Shown here: piece by piece, positions 5,577-25,965 of the stretch
Layout: every line of letters begins with the position of its first letter
Position numbering within the stretch: position 1 is the first letter of the stretch
Made by a program: the position numbers and the translations under genes
The notes under the pieces: generated by a model
What the model saw: the letters and a program-made list of their open reading frames with translations, nothing else
Told to the model about the DNA's origin: nothing
Database searches by the model: none
From: Candidatus Hermodarchaeota archaeon
GTDB lineage: Archaea; Asgardarchaeota; Hermodarchaeia; Hermodarchaeales; Hermodarchaeaceae
NCBI GenBank assembly: GCA_016839805.1
Contig: JAEOTO010000005.1
Coordinates: 1 to 50,382, forward strand
Length of the DNA stretch: 50,382 nucleotides
Direction of reading: 5' to 3'

Positions 5577-6842
5577 ATGGTTTCAATAATGAATGGTTTC
5601 GTATTTGATAACCTATCCTTCAAGAAATTTCTCTTCCAAATACTTCTACCCTTCTTCGTTACACTTTTCTTTCTTCAAGGGTTCAGAACCTTTGTTGTAG
5701 ACATTTACATTGCCCTCTTCAACATCTTATGGGAAGGCACGGGAGAATACCTGCCACTTCTTGGGCTCCTCGTATTTGCCACCCCACTACTGGCAATACT
5801 GCTTCACAAGAAAATTTCAATTCGCTACATGATTGCAGGAAGTGCAATTCTCACCGCGTTCTTTTCCTTACCCATTAGCCTTCAATTACCCTATGAAGTA
5901 GAGCTATTAATGGCATCAATGGTTGTTGCCTTCTACTCTATTTTCCTTCCCTTCTACTTATACTGGCGAACCCAAGACCAACCACATATTAACTACTCAG
6001 CCGATGCCGCTCTTCTATCCGTAAGCATTATCCTCGCATTCAGTTACGATCTCCTCTTTCGAACACTTGGAACAACCTACGACATATCTCGAATACTCTT
6101 CTCCTTTCCAATCCAATTCATCTTCGCTATCATCATAATATGGTCTAACTATGCTCTCATTACTTCGAACCTACGACAATCTCCACTGCCTTCAGAAAAC
6201 GTTTCAAAACTCCCCAATAAGGATAACGAAGTAAAACCAATAACTTCGCGGATAGCCGGATTATTCACGATTGCTGGAGTTGGCGCATTTTTCTTTCTCG
6301 AACATAGCCTTCTCTTGAGCCCCCATAACCTTCTCCGATGGGCGTATCCAACCTACTTTCTCCTCGACATTACAATAGCCCTAATTCTCACTTTCATTGT
6401 CTTAATAATCGCCGCGATTTTACTCGTTCATAATACACTAAGAAACTATTTACAGCGAGAAAAATGGTACACGATGGCCATCGGTAACTTAATCCTGACT
6501 GTTCTCCTCGCGTCACTATTCTTCTCTGGAGGATGGCTAGCCATCATTAGTATCATAGGCTTTCAACTGGTAATGATCATTAACCTATACTTTACCCTCC
6601 AATTTACACTACACCCAACCCTCCGATGGTCAACCACAATACTTTGCACAGCGACATTTGTTGCCCTCCTCATTTTCCTACTCTGGGACTTTATGTTTGC
6701 CTTCACCTTCACCTACGCCTACCTCGGAGATATTGGCACCATCTTTGCCGGTCAAGCCATAACCATCATCTTAAGTGGGGCAATAATCCTCAGCCTCACT
6801 TCCACCTATGCGGTATACAAACTAAGGAGGTTGACACAATGA
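5577..6842 (+). CDS. Polytopic membrane protein, translationally coupled to the downstream EEP hydrolase
   Basis: About 11-12 hydrophobic segments; the stop overlaps the next start (ATGA, 6839-6842). Confidence 0.75.
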   Translation: MVSIMNGFVFDNLSFKKFLFQILLPFFVTLFFLQGFRTFVVDIYIALFNILWEGTGEYLPLLGLLVFATPLLAILLHKKISIRYMIAGSAILTAFFSLPISLQLPYEVELLMASMVVAFYSIFLPFYLYWRTQDQPHINYSADAALLSVSIILAFSYDLLFRTLGTTYDISRILFSFPIQFIFAIIIIWSNYALITSNLRQSPLPSENVSKLPNKDNEVKPITSRIAGLFTIAGVGAFFFLEHSLLLSPHNLLRWAYPTYFLLDITIALILTFIVLIIAAILLVHNTLRNYLQREKWYTMAIGNLILTVLLASLFFSGGWLAIISIIGFQLVMIINLYFTLQFTLHPTLRWSTTILCTATFVALLIFLLWDFMFAFTFTYAYLGDIGTIFAGQAITIILSGAIILSLTSTYAVYKLRRLTQ

Positions 6843-7768
6843 GTTCATTCTTCAATCGCCATTCGAAAGTTCTATTGACATTAACTCTACTCCTTGTCCC
6901 CCTCATTCTTGCCGGTACATGGAGTTCCCTTGTATATCAGGTAAGCCCCCAACCTTCCGGTCAATTAACCGTGATGACCTATAACATCCATGAAGCCATT
7001 AATGTCCACAAGCAATTAAACCTAGATGGAATCCTGGTCACAATTCAACAATCCAACCCAGACATCCTGGTCCTACAAGAAGTCGATACAGGCGTCATCA
7101 TGTCAGGAACAACCGACCAAGCACGATGGCTAGCCCAAAAACTCAACATGTACCTCGCGCCCATCACCTCCACTGACCACATCTGGCAAAGCGACGTGAT
7201 ATTAAGCAAATATCCCATTCACTCTTATGAATCAGTAATACTACACAGTCCCAGCGAAGATGATACCATCCTTCGCGCAGACATCGAAATATCCGGACTA
7301 CAAATCTCCGTCTACGCTGTTCACTTTTCCGCCTTTAGCTCAACCGACCGACGCATCCAAGCCGACACAGGTATCCCCTGGGTTACTTCCATGGGTAATA
7401 GCATCAAAATATGGGCAGGCGATTTCAACGTTGATGCCTACACTACAAACGCCGTTGACCAGAGCATATATGCTGACATAACAACCCACTTCAACGACAC
7501 ATTTGACACCGCCCTCGCCCGAACCGGAAATCTTACCTGGCCATCAACCGGTCCTTATGAACGCATAGACTATGTATTCGTCACACCAACAATCACGGTG
7601 CTCTCTCATGCGGTACCAACATCATTAGCCTCAGATCACCTCCCCGTAGTAACCCAACTACAACTTCCTAGTCCTCCATTGAACCAACCATTACAATACT
7701 CAACGATAATTAAAATAATACAAGTACAAGATGATAACTACTTTCACAGAGTCCAAAGACCAAGATAA
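6839..7768 (+). CDS. Membrane-anchored endonuclease/exonuclease/phosphatase (EEP) family protein
   Basis: MTYNIH, LQEVD, AGDFN, RIDYVF and SDHLPV motifs; AGGAGG upstream of ATG 6839; N-terminal TM helix. Confidence 0.88.
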   Translation: MSSFFNRHSKVLLTLTLLLVPLILAGTWSSLVYQVSPQPSGQLTVMTYNIHEAINVHKQLNLDGILVTIQQSNPDILVLQEVDTGVIMSGTTDQARWLAQKLNMYLAPITSTDHIWQSDVILSKYPIHSYESVILHSPSEDDTILRADIEISGLQISVYAVHFSAFSSTDRRIQADTGIPWVTSMGNSIKIWAGDFNVDAYTTNAVDQSIYADITTHFNDTFDTALARTGNLTWPSTGPYERIDYVFVTPTITVLSHAVPTSLASDHLPVVTQLQLPSPPLNQPLQYSTIIKIIQVQDDNYFHRVQRPR

Positions 7769-8022
7769 TCCAAGGCTTTAACAAATGCATAGAACTACAA
7801 TCATCCATTTTCTAATTCACATCCTACTTACCCACTTTGAGAAGTGATTAAGATAGCAAATGAATGAACTCTAATTCATTGTAATGATGAAAAAAGAGAG
7901 TTTGAGCGCTAACATTAAGGATTGCTAGCCCTCATGATTTTGTTGATAAAAATAGAATAAATATCCGAGTTAACTAGCAAGTCATGAACCTATTTTAAGG
8001 AAAAAATTACAATTCAACGATT

Positions 8023-9429
8023 ATGAAGAAGTATGATGTCATTGTGATTGGTTCTGGTTCAGGTGGAATTATTCTTGACTCGGCTTATCGAGCGGGATTA
8101 AAAGTTGCTTACGTGGACAGGGGACCATTGGGTGGCACGTGTCTCAATGTTGGTTGTATCCCTTCTAAGATGTTAATCTATCCTGCGGATCGTATCGTTG
8201 AAATTCAGGAAGCCCATCGCCTGGGAATTCAGGCGGAGATAAAGGATATTGATTTCAAGGCGATTATGGCTCGCATGCGACAGCCCATCGATGAGAGTCT
8301 CAGTCATATGCGTGCGGGGTTACAACATGCCCGGGACCTTGATTTTTACGAAGCCGAAGGATATTTTGTGAATGATTATACAATGGAAGTTGCAGGCGAA
8401 GAAATTCGAGGTGACAAAATCTTTATTGTGGCTGGTGCCCGACCCGCCATTCCAACAATCAAGGGACTCGAGGAAGTTGATTATCTTACTAATGAAACAT
8501 TGCTTGAAATAACCGAGTTACCGAAAAGTGTAGTCATCATCGGTGGAGGCTATATTGCAGCTGAATATGGTCATTTCCTTGCAGCCATGGGTTCTAAAAT
8601 CACGATGTTACAGCGTGGATCAAGGTTAGTTCCCAACAATGAACCCGAAATTTCTGAAACACTCCATAAGGCATTATCGAAACGCATGGACATCCACCTA
8701 AATACTTCAGCGATTGAAGTGAAACACACGTCCACAGGTGACGTTGTCATTGGAGAAAACAGACTAACAGGGAAAACACAGGAATTCCTCGGTGAACGGA
8801 TTCTCGTAGCTACTGGTCGGCGATCGAACGCTGATGTTCTACGGGTGGAAAAAACTGGTGTCAAAACAGATAAGCGTGGTTTTATTATCGTGAATGACTA
8901 CCTTGAAACGAGTAAGAAAAAAATTTGGGCACTAGGAGATGTCACTGGGCGATACATGTTCAAACATGTCGCGAACCGTGAGGCCCAAATTGCGTGGAAT
9001 AATGCAGTTCAGGACCACAAACAACAAATGGAGTATCACGCCGTTCCCTATGCTATTTTCTCGTATCCTCAAATTGCCGGGGTGGGACTCACGCAAGCTG
9101 AAGCTGAAAAATCCCATGACCTGCTCCTCGGTACTGCCCGTTATTCTGATGTCGCCAAAGGCGAAGCCATGGTGGAAGAAGATGGATTTGCCAAAGCCAT
9201 CGTTGAAAAAAAGACCCATAAGATTCTTGGATTTCACATCATTGGCCCCTATGCGCCTATGCTCATCCAAGAAGTCGTGGACATCATGGCCGTTGGAGGA
9301 AACATGTGGACCCTCGCTCAAGGAATGCATATCCATCCTGCCTTAACAGAGTTGATTGTGACCACACTCGGTAACCTCTATGATCCATCACACGTCCATC
9401 ATTCCCATAACCACGAGCAGGAACACTAA
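8023..9429 (+). CDS. Pyridine nucleotide-disulfide oxidoreductase (dihydrolipoamide dehydrogenase/mycothione reductase-like) with His-rich tail
   Basis: GSGSGG, GGTCLNVGCIPSK, GGGYIAAE, HPALTE; C-terminal HVHHSHNHEQEH. Confidence 0.88.
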   Translation: MKKYDVIVIGSGSGGIILDSAYRAGLKVAYVDRGPLGGTCLNVGCIPSKMLIYPADRIVEIQEAHRLGIQAEIKDIDFKAIMARMRQPIDESLSHMRAGLQHARDLDFYEAEGYFVNDYTMEVAGEEIRGDKIFIVAGARPAIPTIKGLEEVDYLTNETLLEITELPKSVVIIGGGYIAAEYGHFLAAMGSKITMLQRGSRLVPNNEPEISETLHKALSKRMDIHLNTSAIEVKHTSTGDVVIGENRLTGKTQEFLGERILVATGRRSNADVLRVEKTGVKTDKRGFIIVNDYLETSKKKIWALGDVTGRYMFKHVANREAQIAWNNAVQDHKQQMEYHAVPYAIFSYPQIAGVGLTQAEAEKSHDLLLGTARYSDVAKGEAMVEEDGFAKAIVEKKTHKILGFHIIGPYAPMLIQEVVDIMAVGGNMWTLAQGMHIHPALTELIVTTLGNLYDPSHVHHSHNHEQEH

Positions 9430-24671: not shown

Positions 24672-25831
24672 TTAACGTTCTTCCTGAAGGCTTTCCAGGC
24701 TTTCTAACACCACATCACGTTGGCCTTGGCGAATCAAACTTCGGAGAAAAGTCCCAAGGACACCTACTTCACTAACCCCTAAACGATTCATTGCATGAAC
24801 CGAGCGGTTCTCGAAATCTTCATCCTGAATTGAGTGTGGGTCAATACCAATGAATTCCACTAGAGTTGATTCGGTTTTATGTTCCACGACAACATCTGCA
24901 GTTTCTGGTGGTAGCTCAGCATCGGGAGGTTGAGGTTCAGGAGTAACAGGTTCTGCTGGCGCTTGAGGTTCAATGGGAGTCTCTTCGATTTCTTGAGGTA
25001 TAGGTGGTTCAATCGGTTTAATGGGTTCTGGTTCAGAACTTTCTACTGTTGGTGTAGAGGGGTCTTCGAGTGGAATAGGTTCATCTTCCACTTCCTCTAT
25101 AGGAGGGAGAGGTATCGGTTCAGGAATAGGTGCCTCTTCTTCAGAAACCCTTTCTTCTGGTGGCATACTCGACGGTTCAGGAACTGCAGGCTCTTCAACA
25201 GGAGTTACTGGAGTCTCCGAAACCGCAGGAACAGCTTCCTCTTCAGCCTTACCCCATTCCGGCCATTTTGACTGAATAATCGTTTTCGCAACCTGAATAA
25301 AGGCATCACCTACGTTCTCATCCATCTTCGCACTTGTTTCGATATACTCCACATCAATCTGTGTAGCGAAAGCCTCTCCTTCCTCTCGTGATACAACACG
25401 TTGATCCTCTAAATCAGTCTTGTTAGCAATCAGAATCCCCGGAATATTCCCAGCATTCTTACTCGACTCCTCCAACCATCCGGCTAAATGATCAAAAGAG
25501 GCTCGATCTGTAACACTATAAACGTAAATCACACCTGTGGATCCCTGATAAAACAGGGGACGCACACCGCCAAAGTGTGGCTGTCCCGCCAAATCCCAAA
25601 TCTGCAGCTTTACCATAACATTACCCAAATCAACCGTCTTCACCGCAAATGACGTGCCAATCGTCATTTTTTGCGCAGATGGCGCTACGTGAGCGGCATC
25701 TAGTACGTGTCGGTGAAGGTGCCTTGGGTGTAGCGGACGATTAGGCTGGTTTTGCCGACGGCGCCGTCGCCAGCAACTGGGACTTTGAAGATGTATGTTG
25801 GTTTGGTTGTTGGAGGTCTTCCTTCCATCAT
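24672..25831 (-). CDS. Rab-like small GTPase, join(25831..25703, 25670..24672), 375 aa, with Pro/Glu-rich linker and small C-terminal domain
   Basis: Exon 1 (43 codons, AAGGAG upstream) MMEGRPPTTKPTYIFKVPVAGDGAVGKTSLIVRYTQGTFTDTY carries G1; exon 2 KMTIGTSF..KLQIWDLAGQ..NKTD..ETSAK carries G2-G5. Confidence 0.9.
25671..25702 (-). other. Putative 32-nt bulge-helix-bulge-type mRNA intron
   Basis: Minus-strand TAGATGCCGCTCACGTAGCGCCATCTGCGCAA. Its removal fuses TAC|AAA in frame; internal hairpin and 3-nt bulges AC^U and AA^A flank a 4-nt central helix. Confidence 0.75.
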
Positions 25832-25965
25832 AATATGCTCCTTGGTTGGTCAATAGTGTCTTGGGTATTTATTTTCTGTGTTGACTTTTAACTGGATTGG
25901 TGGGTGTTGCGTTTTACTTCGTAGATTAGTACAGCTGTCATGAATTTTCAAAGGTCAAAGACGAT

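What the first reader, a model, noticed from the sequence alone, without database searches (positions are those of the whole stretch)
25632..25831. Candidate bulge-helix-bulge mRNA intron inside a Rab-like GTPase gene
Seen in sequence (minus strand): an AAGGAG-led frame encodes an intact P-loop (..VAGDGAVGKTSLIVRYTQGTFTDTY) and then meets TAG. The rest of the GTPase (KMTIGTSF..KLQIWDLAGQ..) resumes in another frame. Deleting exactly 32 nt (25671-25702) gives FTDTY-KMTIG, the canonical Rab F-x-x-x-Y-x-x-T-I-G spacing. Independently, the RNA folds as central helix ACGU/GCGC (3 pairs plus an A-C mismatch), bulge ACU, intron hairpin AGAUG-C-CGCU-[CACGU]-AGCG-C-CAUCU, and bulge AAA. Established: archaeal splicing endonuclease cuts after the second nucleotide of each 3-nt bulge. 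Here that gives AC^U and AA^A, the same boundaries that protein homology requires. The best-known archaeal mRNA intron of this type is in crenarchaeal cbf5. Inference: EndA/RtcB-type splicing is needed to express this eukaryotic-signature GTPase. The unspliced mRNA would give only a 43-aa peptide, so splicing could act as an on/off switch conceptually like XBP1/HAC1.
Basis: partly seen in the sequence, partly recalled or inferred. Interest (0 to 1): 0.95.

Follow-up and report, generated by a model that had tools for sequence, protein, structure and literature searches.

The report
tRNA-type mini-intron in Asgard GTPase gene
A 32-base insert that splits a Rab-like GTPase gene of an Asgard archaeon is almost certainly a small intron removed from the mRNA by the tRNA-splicing enzymes, a gene layout previously documented in archaea essentially only for the cbf5 gene of Crenarchaeota.

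Summary
On the minus strand, exon 1 (25831-25703, P-loop) and exon 2 (25670-24675) are separated by exactly 32 nt (25702-25671). Removing them gives FTDTY-KMTIG, which is what 11 same-genus orthologues read without interruption.

The insert is real DNA. It appears in an independent assembly of the likely source run and in a 2.7%-diverged strain from another study.

It is not a pseudogene. Homologous 32-nt inserts sit at the same junction in four other diverged alleles. Both exons are under strong purifying selection among these alleles (dN/dS 0.02-0.11, dS up to 1.3). The insert evolves more slowly than synonymous sites, and its changes preserve pairing.

The fold is a relaxed bulge-helix-bulge (HBh'): a 3-4 bp central helix, a 3-nt 5' bulge, a 10-bp inner stem, and a 3' site in an A-rich loop. 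The cut sites fall exactly on the boundaries set by homology.

[quoted passage not shown] I also verified same-design inserts in dnaG (conserved across the genus), S30e, an EF-2 paralogue and actin.

No RNA data were available, so splicing is inferred, not shown. The proposed on/off switch role has no support. This scan had flagged the other mRNA inserts on other pieces of this genome before.

The parts
25838..25843 (-). Shine-Dalgarno-like AAGGAG, 6 nt upstream of the start codon
   Evidence: Read directly from the sequence.
25703..25831 (-). Exon 1: 43 codons, MMEGRPPTTKPTYIFKVPVAGDGAVGKTSLIVRYTQGTFTDTY (beta1, P-loop, alpha1)
   Evidence: ORF listing. Pfam Ras profile positions 1-28. dN/dS 0.02-0.07 between insert-bearing alleles.
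25671..25702 (-). 32-nt intron (relaxed BHB, HBh' class). It starts with an in-frame TAG in this strain.
   Evidence: Clean 32-nt gap against 11 orthologues. Present in independent contigs of runs X1 and X2, and partly in X3. Homologous 32-nt inserts at the same site in L079, L081, L082 and L086.
24675..25670 (-). Exon 2: KMTIGTSF...WDLAGQ... (rest of the GTPase domain) plus a long Pro/Glu-rich tail and a C-terminal region. The stop codon is at 24672-24674.
   Evidence: ORF listing. Pfam Ras profile positions 30-161. Orthologues at 81-92% identity. dN/dS 0.05-0.11.
25705..25708 (-). Central helix, exon strand (ACGU, exon positions -6 to -3)
   Evidence: Pairs with 25673-25676: 3 of 4 pairs here and 4 of 4 in L081/L082/L086. 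The same register holds in this genome's canonical tRNA introns.
25673..25676 (-). Central helix, intron strand (GCGC, intron positions 27-30)
25702..25704 (-). 5' three-nucleotide bulge AC|U. The predicted cut lies between 25703 and 25702.
   Evidence: MFE and consensus folds. The cut coincides with the boundary set by homology.
25677..25701 (-). Inner stem-loop h': AGAUG-C-CGCU / loop CACGU / AGCG-C-CAUCU
   Evidence: MFE folds of all five alleles. 94% of cells are paired, and changes preserve pairing, including a G:C to A:U double change.
25670..25672 (-). 3' cut region AA|A. The predicted cut lies between 25671 and 25670. It is part of an A-rich single-stranded stretch, not a strict 3-nt bulge.
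   Evidence: Consensus fold. The boundary comes from homology.
25709..25714 (-). Possible distal outer helix, exon-1 strand (-12 to -7), pairing with 25656-25661
   Evidence: RNAalifold consensus: 4 bp in the window allele and 6 bp in L081/L082/L086. Coding constraint confounds this.
25656..25661 (-). Possible distal outer helix, exon-2 strand (Ile-Gly codons)

Best explanation
The 32 nt at 25702-25671 (minus strand) are an archaeal bulge-helix-bulge-type intron inside the mRNA of a Rab-like small GTPase of an Asgard archaeon.

Proposed structure of the pre-mRNA:
- Exon nucleotides -6 to -3 (ACGU) pair with intron nucleotides 27-30 to form the short central helix.
- The 5' splice site lies in a 3-nt bulge (AC|U), next to a 10-bp intron stem-loop.
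- The 3' splice site (AA|A) lies in an A-rich unpaired stretch just 3' of the central helix.
- This is the relaxed HBh' form of the motif.

Proposed mechanism: the heteromeric (alpha-beta)2 splicing endonuclease, whose alpha subunit carries the broad-specificity loop, cuts after the second nucleotide at each site. RtcB, with archease, joins the exons to give ...ACG UAC|AAA AUG..., which reads FTDTY-KMTIG. The 32-nt intron is probably released as a circle. Only the spliced mRNA encodes a complete GTPase. The unspliced mRNA ends after 43 codons.

Shown: the anatomy, that the insert is real DNA, its homologues at the same site, selection on both exons, conservation of the structure, and the presence of the enzymes. 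Inferred: cleavage and ligation themselves.
For: 1. Exact frame restoration. Pfam Ras covers positions 1-28 on exon 1 and 30-161 on exon 2. Eleven same-genus orthologues read TFTDTYKMTIG with a clean 32-nt gap at exactly these boundaries.

2. Real DNA. A 9.5-kb Logan contig of run X1 carries the insert with 0 differences. Run X3 partly covers it. A 999-nt contig of run X2 (another study, 27 differences, 0 gaps) carries it, and its only two changes are at the first and last intron nucleotides, the bulge positions.

3. Selection after insertion. Between the window and the X2 strain there are 13 coding differences, 10 of them silent.

4. Same-site homologues. 32-nt inserts occur at the same junction in L079/L080, L081, L082/L083 and L086, from JGI, NCBI and Logan sources.

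5. dN/dS is 0.02-0.07 for exon 1 and 0.05-0.11 for exon 2 at dS 0.18-1.3. The intron differs at only 3/32 and 5/32 positions in the same pairs.

6. Structure. All alleles fold by MFE into helix, 3-nt bulge and 10-bp stem. 92.9% of cells are paired, against 19-47% when partners are slid, with 7 further pair types. The A.C mismatch of the window is A-U in three alleles. RNAalifold finds the same structure unprompted.

7. Chance rate of the minimal motif at a fixed register: 1.35e-3 per position. The register rule is validated on this genome's own canonical tRNA introns.

8. Stop codons. In L081, L082 and L086 the exon-1 and exon-2 frames are both closed within the insert, and in L081 and L086 all three frames are closed.

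9. Enzymes.
- Two EndA paralogues.
- The alpha subunit aligns without gaps to 3p1z_B/3ajv_B, including the loop region.
- The second paralogue lacks the catalytic His.
- RtcB sits next to archease.
- Asgard EndA is reported as (alpha-beta)2 with the L1 loop (PMC5829648).

10. Same-design inserts restore dnaG, S30e, an EF-2 paralogue and actin in this genome. The dnaG insert is kept in all 13 genus genomes with 98.6% of cells paired.

11. The gene tree needs at least 3 gain or loss events, including exact absence of the 32 nt in the window's sister allele P0002. This is the gain-and-loss pattern described for the cbf5 intron (PMC2738675).
Against: - No transcript, junction read, circular intron or peptide has been seen.
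- The window allele has only 3 of 4 central pairs and a C.C mismatch in the stem.
- There is no outer exon helix next to the 3' site, so the 3' cut lies in an 11-nt loop and not in a canonical 3-nt bulge. A recent preprint warns that the loosest relaxed BHB class is very permissive (10.64898/2026.10.13.758758).
- With only five alleles, the shuffle control for covariation is not significant: 83/500 shuffles reach the observed pairing and 166/500 the covariation score.
- The insert-bearing alleles other than the window and X2 come from metagenome contigs whose organisms' EndA genes I did not check.
Confidence: 0.85

Rival explanations
1. Split gene without splicing. Exon 1 (43-47 aa) and exon 2 (starting at the ATG of K-M-TIG) are translated as two separate polypeptides that assemble into a working GTPase. 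The insert would be just an intercistronic spacer.
For: Both parts are under purifying selection. An ATG lies 3 nt into exon 2. Gene callers do call two ORFs.
Against: - The spacer's BHB-shaped fold, with cut sites exactly at the homology boundaries, would be left unexplained.
- The spacer evolves more slowly than synonymous sites, in a pair-preserving way.
- The Lys codon just before the ATG varies only synonymously, AAA or AAG.
- No Shine-Dalgarno-like motif precedes the internal ATG.
- The same design interrupts S30e after 9 codons and actin near its C-terminus, where split proteins are implausible.
- Close relatives have the exact uninterrupted gene.
Confidence: 0.05
2. Translational recoding. 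The ribosome bypasses (hops over) or frameshifts through the 32 nt, helped by the hairpin, as in phage T4 gene 60.
For: A stop codon or a hairpin directly follows the last exon-1 codon, which superficially resembles a take-off site.
Against: - No matching take-off and landing codons: TAC/TAT at take-off, but CAA/CAG/TAA before the landing point.
- No slippery heptamer upstream.
- In L081, L082 and L086 the exon-2 frame has TAA at intron positions 30-32, and L081 and L086 have stops in all three frames, so reading through is impossible.
- Reading through in the window allele would add about 11 residues inside switch I.
Confidence: 0.03
3. Non-functional insertion. The gene is a recently inactivated pseudogene and the hairpin is incidental.
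For: Among 400 species representatives of the phylum, only this genome has the insert. All 11 same-genus orthologues lack it.
Against: - dN/dS is 0.02-0.11 on both exons across insert-bearing alleles that have diverged to dS above 1.
- 10 of the 13 coding differences between the two strains are silent.
- The genome holds no intact second copy. The next paralogue is 54% identical.
- The insert itself is conserved.
Confidence: 0.03
4. The element is removed at the DNA level (programmed excision in part of the population), or it is an assembly or sequencing artefact.
For: The source is a metagenome-assembled genome. Contigs cannot show rare variants.
Against: - The insert is identical in an independent Logan assembly of X1 and in the part covered by X3.
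- It is present in the diverged X2 strain from another study.
- It is present in JGI, NCBI and Logan contigs of other lineages.
- No contig of the same strain shows the joined form. The only joined form is in X4, a roughly 92%-identical relative.
Confidence: 0.02

Closest known systems
cbf5 pre-mRNA intron of Crenarchaeota (Desulfurococcales and Sulfolobales; Watanabe 2002, Yoshinari 2006, Yokobori 2009 = PMC2738675)
   Same: A small intron inside a protein-coding gene. It is bounded by a relaxed BHB cleavage motif. The organism has a hetero-oligomeric splicing endonuclease. The distribution among close relatives is patchy, with gain and loss.
   Different: Different phylum (Asgard) and a different host gene (a Rab-like small GTPase, a eukaryotic-signature protein). 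There is no sequence relation. Splicing is not yet shown experimentally here. In this genome it is one of at least five such inserts, not a single case.
Non-canonical archaeal tRNA introns (HBh'/BHL motifs) cut by (alpha-beta)2 or epsilon2 EndA (PMC5829648, PMC3241643; Asgard tRNA census 10.64898/2026.10.13.758758)
   Same: Same register: a 4-nt central helix between exon -6..-3 and intron n-5..n-2, with the cut after the second bulge nucleotide. Same size range (this genome's tRNA introns are 12-117 nt, one of them 32 nt with an 11-bp inner helix). The same enzymes are inferred.
   Different: The host RNA is an mRNA with no tRNA body. The anticodon-stem-like outer helix is missing, so recognition would have to rest on the central helix, the 5' bulge and the inner stem alone.
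HAC1/XBP1 unconventional mRNA splicing (Ire1 cleavage; ligation by Trl1 or RtcB)
   Same: A protein-enzyme-catalysed excision of a short, frame-changing intron from a cytoplasmic mRNA, independent of the spliceosome, with RtcB-type ligation in metazoans.
   Different: The endonuclease there is Ire1, which recognises two 7-nt loops, not a BHB. That system is stress-regulated. Here no Ire1-type RNase domain was found (an uninformative control) and nothing suggests regulation.

Membership tests
Archaeal BHB intron (EndA substrate) | Four-position central helix between the exon nucleotides -6..-3 and the intron nucleotides n-5..n-2 | tested here: met
   Window and L079: 3 of 4 pairs (A.C, C-G, G-C, U.G). 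L081, L082 and L086: 4 of 4 pairs. The same register is seen in this genome's canonical tRNA introns.
Archaeal BHB intron (EndA substrate) | The 5' splice site lies after the second nucleotide of a 3-nt bulge and coincides with an independently defined exon boundary | tested here: met
   The bulge is AC|U (AC|A or AU|A in the other alleles) in the MFE and consensus folds. The boundary comes from the orthologue alignment.
Archaeal BHB intron (EndA substrate) | The 3' splice site lies after the second nucleotide of a 3-nt bulge closed by an outer helix | tested here: inconclusive
   The AA|A position is right relative to the central helix, but no adjacent outer helix exists. The consensus fold puts the site in an 11-nt loop closed by a distal exon-exon helix. 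This is the relaxed HBh'/BHL form.
Archaeal BHB intron (EndA substrate) | At least one flanking helix (h or h') of 2 or more pairs | tested here: met
   The inner helix h' has 10 positions: 9 paired in the window and 10 in L081/L082/L086. 94% of cells are paired across the alleles.
Archaeal BHB intron (EndA substrate) | The host encodes a splicing endonuclease able to cut relaxed motifs, plus an RtcB ligase | tested here: met
   Two EndA paralogues. The alpha subunit matches 3p1z_B/3ajv_B through the loop region, and the second paralogue lacks the catalytic His. RtcB and archease are present. The literature reports Asgard EndA as (alpha-beta)2 with the L1 loop (PMC5829648).
Archaeal BHB intron (EndA substrate) | Cleavage and exon ligation actually occur (spliced RNA, circular intron) | not testable with these tools
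   No RNA run that holds this locus was listed.
cbf5-type archaeal pre-mRNA intron | Intron located in the cbf5 (pseudouridine synthase) gene of Crenarchaeota | tested here: not met
   The host gene is a Ras/Rab-family GTPase of an Asgard archaeon (source names). It works like the cbf5 intron but is not a member by descent.
HAC1/XBP1-type regulated unconventional splicing | Ire1 kinase/RNase and twin 7-nt-loop cleavage sites; stress-dependent splicing | tested here: inconclusive
   PF06479 was not found in the 87%-complete genome, but the control genomes did not ring either. The fold is a BHB, not twin loops. Regulation was not testable.
Ras/Rab-like small GTPase (PF00071) | P-loop GxxxxGK[ST], switch I Thr, DxxGQ and NKxD in one chain | tested here: met
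   After removal of the 32 nt, GDGAVGKTS, YKMTIG, WDLAGQ and NKTD are in one frame. The Pfam E-value is 1.5e-37 on exon 2 and 8.4e-6 on exon 1.

The most novel reading that the evidence does not exclude
This Asgard genus routinely splices mRNAs with the tRNA-splicing machinery. Mini-introns of 28-32 nt with a common HBh' design sit in several protein genes, both housekeeping (dnaG, S30e, an EF-2 paralogue) and eukaryotic-signature (actin, a Rab-like GTPase). Some are old and conserved across the genus, while others were gained recently in single species. Protein-coding genes in the closest prokaryotic relatives of eukaryotes would then be undergoing ongoing intron gain and loss through an enzyme-based, spliceosome-independent route.
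Probability: 0.6. Interest if true: 0.92.

Novelty: new member of a known kind. Interest (0 to 1): 0.82.

Why it matters
Protein-enzyme splicing of archaeal mRNAs has been documented essentially for one gene (cbf5) in one phylum. This case has comparative proof of function in a eukaryotic-signature GTPase of an Asgard archaeon, and at least four further inserts of the same design occur in the same genome.

- **Biology:** mRNA introns of the tRNA type would be a living, turning-over feature in the archaeal lineage closest to eukaryotes. That makes questions about intron tolerance, intron gain and mRNA surveillance before the spliceosome open to experiment.
- **Annotation:** gene callers truncate such genes. 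The public protein collection holds this family as P-loop-less "MTIGTSF..." proteins (P0001, P0003, P0043, P0048, P0049), and the S30e gene is interrupted after its 9th codon. Inventories of eukaryotic-signature and core proteins, and pseudogene counts, are therefore biased in these genomes.

Tried and rejected
- **Collection scans.** A degenerate exon-anchored pattern on genome contigs and metagenome contigs gave 62 hits, none Ras-like. All were chance matches.
- **Phylum scan.** The pattern search of 400 phylum genomes found only the window itself. The single other hit (G148, L089) is an uninterrupted GTPase matched in another reading frame.
- **Covariance model.** The model of the BHB core (R1) found no second copy in the own genome or in 60 relatives, so the intron is not a dispersed element. 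blastn-short found no related sequence in the genome.
- **Genome-wide scan.** The scan for BHB plus ORF fusion did not discriminate: 8228 hits against 8405 and 8514 in shifted-register controls. I discarded it. A first fuzzy-regex scan timed out.
- **False leads.** P0015 (L084) is truncated by its contig end. P0045 (L085) is an uninterrupted gene with a miscalled start. P0034 (L087) has an unrelated internal deletion. P0039 had no DNA available.
- **RNA evidence.** No RNA holder was listed for this locus, so expression and splicing could not be examined.
- **Shuffle control.** For covariation on five alleles it is not significant, so I rely on the slid-partner control, the selection data and the register statistics instead.
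- **Ire1 search.** The RNase domain search found nothing, but its controls did not ring either, so it is uninformative.
- **Local hairpin.** An exon-2 hairpin (25669-25662 with 25654-25647) could act as a surrogate outer helix in the window allele. It is not conserved in the other alleles, so it is not part of the model.
Full report
**1. What is in the sequence**

On the minus strand, an AAGGAG (25843-25838) precedes an ATG at 25831. The frame encodes 43 residues ending ...GDGAVGKTSLIVRYTQGTFTDTY and then meets TAG at 25702-25700. The rest of the GTPase (KMTIGTSF...WDLAGQ...NKTD...) starts at 25670 in another frame and runs to 24675.

Pfam Ras matches exon 1 on profile positions 1-28 and exon 2 on positions 30-161. 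Deleting 25702-25671 therefore rebuilds one uninterrupted domain.

**2. Boundaries fixed independently of any fold**

A search of 30 related genomes found one clear orthologue in each of 12 or more same-genus genomes, at 81-92% identity over the GTPase domain. All 11 that I extracted read TFTDTYKMTIG without interruption. The DNA alignment shows a single clean 32-nt gap between TAC and AAA whose position cannot be shifted. The genome has no second intact copy, and the next paralogue is 54% identical.

**3. The insert is real DNA**

I laid Logan contigs on the locus.
- A 9.5-kb contig of run X1 (probably the source sample) carries the insert with no difference.
- X3 (same study) covers part of it identically.
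- A 999-nt contig of X2 (a different study and year) is 2.7% diverged, has no gaps, and carries the insert.
- X4, a roughly 92%-identical relative, lacks exactly this segment.

The only two X2 differences inside the insert are its first and last nucleotides, which are the predicted bulge positions. Of the 13 coding differences between the two strains, 10 are silent.

**4. Homologous inserts at the same site in other lineages**

A search of the large protein collection with the exon-2 product returned 58 orthologues. Source names were Promethearchaeota, Thorarchaeota, Hermodarchaeota and Hodarchaeota, so this is an Asgard archaeon. Several were called as starting exactly at MTIGTSF.

Their contigs show the following.
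- Four distinct alleles carry a 47-aa Ras mini-ORF, a 32-nt insert at exactly the Y|K junction, and the same neighbouring genes. They are L079 (=L080), L081, L082 (=L083) and L086.
- Two of these were each seen in two independent data sources.
- Three other leads were trivial: a contig end, a miscalled start, and an unrelated deletion.

**5. The interrupted gene is functional**

Between insert-bearing alleles, dN/dS is 0.02-0.07 for exon 1 and 0.05-0.11 for exon 2, at dS 0.18-1.3. Exon 1 would decay if only exon 2 were used, and it does not. The insert differs at 3/32 and 5/32 positions in pairs whose synonymous divergence is 0.4-1.25. So the insert itself is constrained.

In L081, L082 and L086 the exon-2 frame has TAA at intron positions 30-32 and the exon-1 frame has TAR at 16-18. 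L081 and L086 have stops in all three frames. Read-through or frameshifting cannot join the exons.

**6. The RNA structure**

All five alleles fold by MFE into the same shape: a 3-5-bp helix, a 3-nt bulge, and a 10-bp stem with a 5-nt loop.

I defined the pairing scheme from the insertion boundaries: exon -6..-3 with intron 27-30, and intron 2-11 with 17-26. Under that scheme:
- 92.9% of cells are paired, against 19-47% when the partners are slid by 1-3 columns.
- Seven further pair types occur, including G:C to A:U at 3:25 and C:G / U:A / U:G at 10:18.
- The window's A.C mismatch in the central helix is A-U in three alleles.

With five sequences, the shuffle control is not significant. RNAalifold on a 162-nt alignment recovers the same elements unprompted. 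It adds a distal exon-exon helix (exon 1 at -12..-7 with the Ile-Gly codons of exon 2), which leaves the 3' cut site in an 11-nt A-rich loop. The motif is therefore strict on the 5' side and relaxed on the 3' side: the HBh' class, verging on bulge-helix-loop.

**7. Is it more than chance?**

The register rule (cut after the second bulge nucleotide, with the central helix 5' of each bulge) is reproduced at offset 0 by this genome's own canonical tRNA introns: Ser, Tyr, Gln and Trp. It also matches the definition used in a recent Asgard tRNA-intron census (10.64898/2026.10.13.758758).

Across the genome, a 32-nt segment meets even minimal criteria (3 or more of 4 central pairs plus five in-register inner pairs) at 1.35e-3 of positions. 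Here the boundaries were fixed beforehand by homology.

**8. The machinery**

- The genome has two EndA-family genes.
- The 186-aa paralogue keeps the Tyr/His/Lys catalytic context. It aligns without gaps to PDB chains 3p1z_B and 3ajv_B, including the loop GIRKPKTTEFDRP against DVEKPRGADFEGP. From my own knowledge, those chains are the Aeropyrum pernix (alpha-beta)2 enzyme, and that region is the crenarchaeal-specific loop.
- The 198-aa paralogue has Thr at the catalytic His position, as expected for a structural beta subunit.
- RtcB and archease are adjacent genes.
- PMC5829648 reports that Asgard archaea have (alpha-beta)2 EndA with the L1 loop, and that only such enzymes cut relaxed motifs.
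- About half of the aragorn-called tRNA genes of this genome carry introns.

**9. Distribution**

Among 400 species representatives of the phylum, only this genome has an insert at this site. On the gene tree:
- The insert-bearing alleles form one fully insert-bearing clade (L081, L082, L086; support 100/100).
- A second clade is (L079, (window, P0002)), in which the window's sister P0002 lacks the 32 nt exactly.
- At least three gain or loss events are needed.

Exact absence in close relatives, together with conservation elsewhere, is how the cbf5 intron behaves (PMC2738675). The element is not dispersed: a covariance model finds only this copy in 61 genomes.

**10. Context: other mRNA inserts in the same genome**

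Earlier first-stage notes of this scan listed candidate BHB inserts in other protein genes of this genome.

| Gene | Place | Length | Central pairs | Inner pairs | Restored sequence |
|---|---|---|---|---|---|
| S30e | C22:69656-69685, minus | 30 nt | 4/4 | 9 | HGSLT-KAGKVR |
| dnaG | C22:35407-35434, plus | 28 nt | 4/4 | 5 | QTEGL-LGEDLDL |
| EF-2 paralogue | C22:180577-180607, plus | 31 nt | 4/4 | 5 | EEQRRG-I-TIKSA |
| actin (first break) | C32, minus | 28 nt | 4/4 | 3 (outer 5) | APP-ERMYSVW |

The three C22 inserts and the GTPase intron share the same design: an inner stem, almost no outer helix, and AA| at the 3' site. The actin insert differs in having a 5-pair outer helix and a shorter inner stem.
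- The dnaG insert is present in all 13 genus genomes examined. 98.6% of cells are paired (41-55% when slid), and variation is concentrated in the 3-nt loop.
- The S30e insert, like the GTPase insert, is unique to this genome. Twelve relatives are uninterrupted.

An essential ribosomal protein gene and an essential, genus-wide conserved dnaG can only be expressed if such inserts are removed. This independently supports the mechanism.

**11. Verdict**

The best explanation (confidence about 0.85) is a relaxed BHB intron removed from the mRNA by (alpha-beta)2 EndA and RtcB.

The rivals are each unlikely and each has a stated refutation: a split two-polypeptide GTPase, translational bypass, a pseudogene, and an artefact or DNA-level excision. 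What is missing is any RNA or protein evidence, because no RNA run was available.

The patchy distribution does not favour it.

I found no report of BHB introns in Asgard protein-coding genes in the searched literature. The nearest precedent is the crenarchaeal cbf5 intron. I class this as a new member of a known kind and rate its interest as high, because of the lineage, the host gene and the evidence for a wider system.

Noticed in passing
G000:C22:69656-69685 (minus strand; loci L091/L112): A 30-nt insert with two in-frame TAG stops interrupts the ribosomal protein S30e gene after its 9th codon. It has a BHB register (GCUU/GAGU, AC|G, AA|A, 9-bp inner stem). It is absent from all 12 same-genus relatives examined, so it looks like a recent gain in an essential gene.
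   Followed up: yes
G000:C22:35407-35434 (plus strand; loci L092, L094-L106): A 28-nt BHB-type insert in dnaG is conserved in all 13 genus genomes examined. 98.6% of cells are paired, stem changes preserve pairing, and the 3-nt loop is highly variable.
   Followed up: yes
G000:C22:180577-180607 (plus strand; locus L093): A 31-nt insert in an EF-2-family gene (GGGG/CCCC central helix, AA|A and AA|U). Removing it restores EEQRRG-I-TIKSA. I did not check conservation in relatives.
   Followed up: partly
G000:C32, minus strand, just downstream of the codons for KIVAPP: The actin gene is interrupted near its C-terminus. A 28-nt segment in BHB register (4/4 central pairs, outer 5, inner 3) restores APP-ERMYSVWIGGSIL. 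Earlier notes reported a second break (30 nt) further on, which I did not verify.
   Followed up: partly
G000:C13:18034-18140: tRNA-Ala(UGC) carries a 32-nt intron at a non-canonical position, with an 11-bp inner helix and only 2 outer pairs. That architecture is very like the mRNA introns. 18 of the 35 aragorn tRNA calls have introns, though some of the calls are doubtful.
   Followed up: partly
G000:C22:6363-8483: An intron-containing tRNA-Ser(UGA), archease (6594-7007) and RtcB (7173-8483) lie side by side on the same strand.
   Followed up: no
window 25862-25935 (minus strand), upstream of the GTPase gene: A non-coding block (...CACCAATCCAGTTAAAAG.CAACA.AGAAAATAAATAC...) is more conserved across the genus than the N-terminal codons. 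It is probably the promoter (an A/T-rich TATA-like box) and the 5' leader.
   Followed up: no
window 25647-25669 (minus strand): Only in the window allele (and X2) does exon 2 form a perfect 8-bp local hairpin (AAAUGACG / CGUCAUUU) starting one nucleotide after the 3' splice site. A Ser codon (TCA) not used by any of the 11 orthologues makes this possible. It might stack on the central helix as a surrogate outer helix, or it might be chance.
   Followed up: partly
L087:1741-2060 (JGI 3300028823 contig): One orthologue has an internal deletion running from the P-loop (…GDGAVG) to …DSVMVKLQ. It is either a true pseudogene or a misassembly, and it is unrelated to the intron.
   Followed up: no
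Protein collection entries P0001, P0003, P0043, P0048, P0049: Public gene calls for every insert-bearing allele start at MTIGTSF and lack the P-loop. The 43-47-aa exon-1 ORF is called separately or not at all. This is a systematic annotation error caused by the intron.
   Followed up: yes
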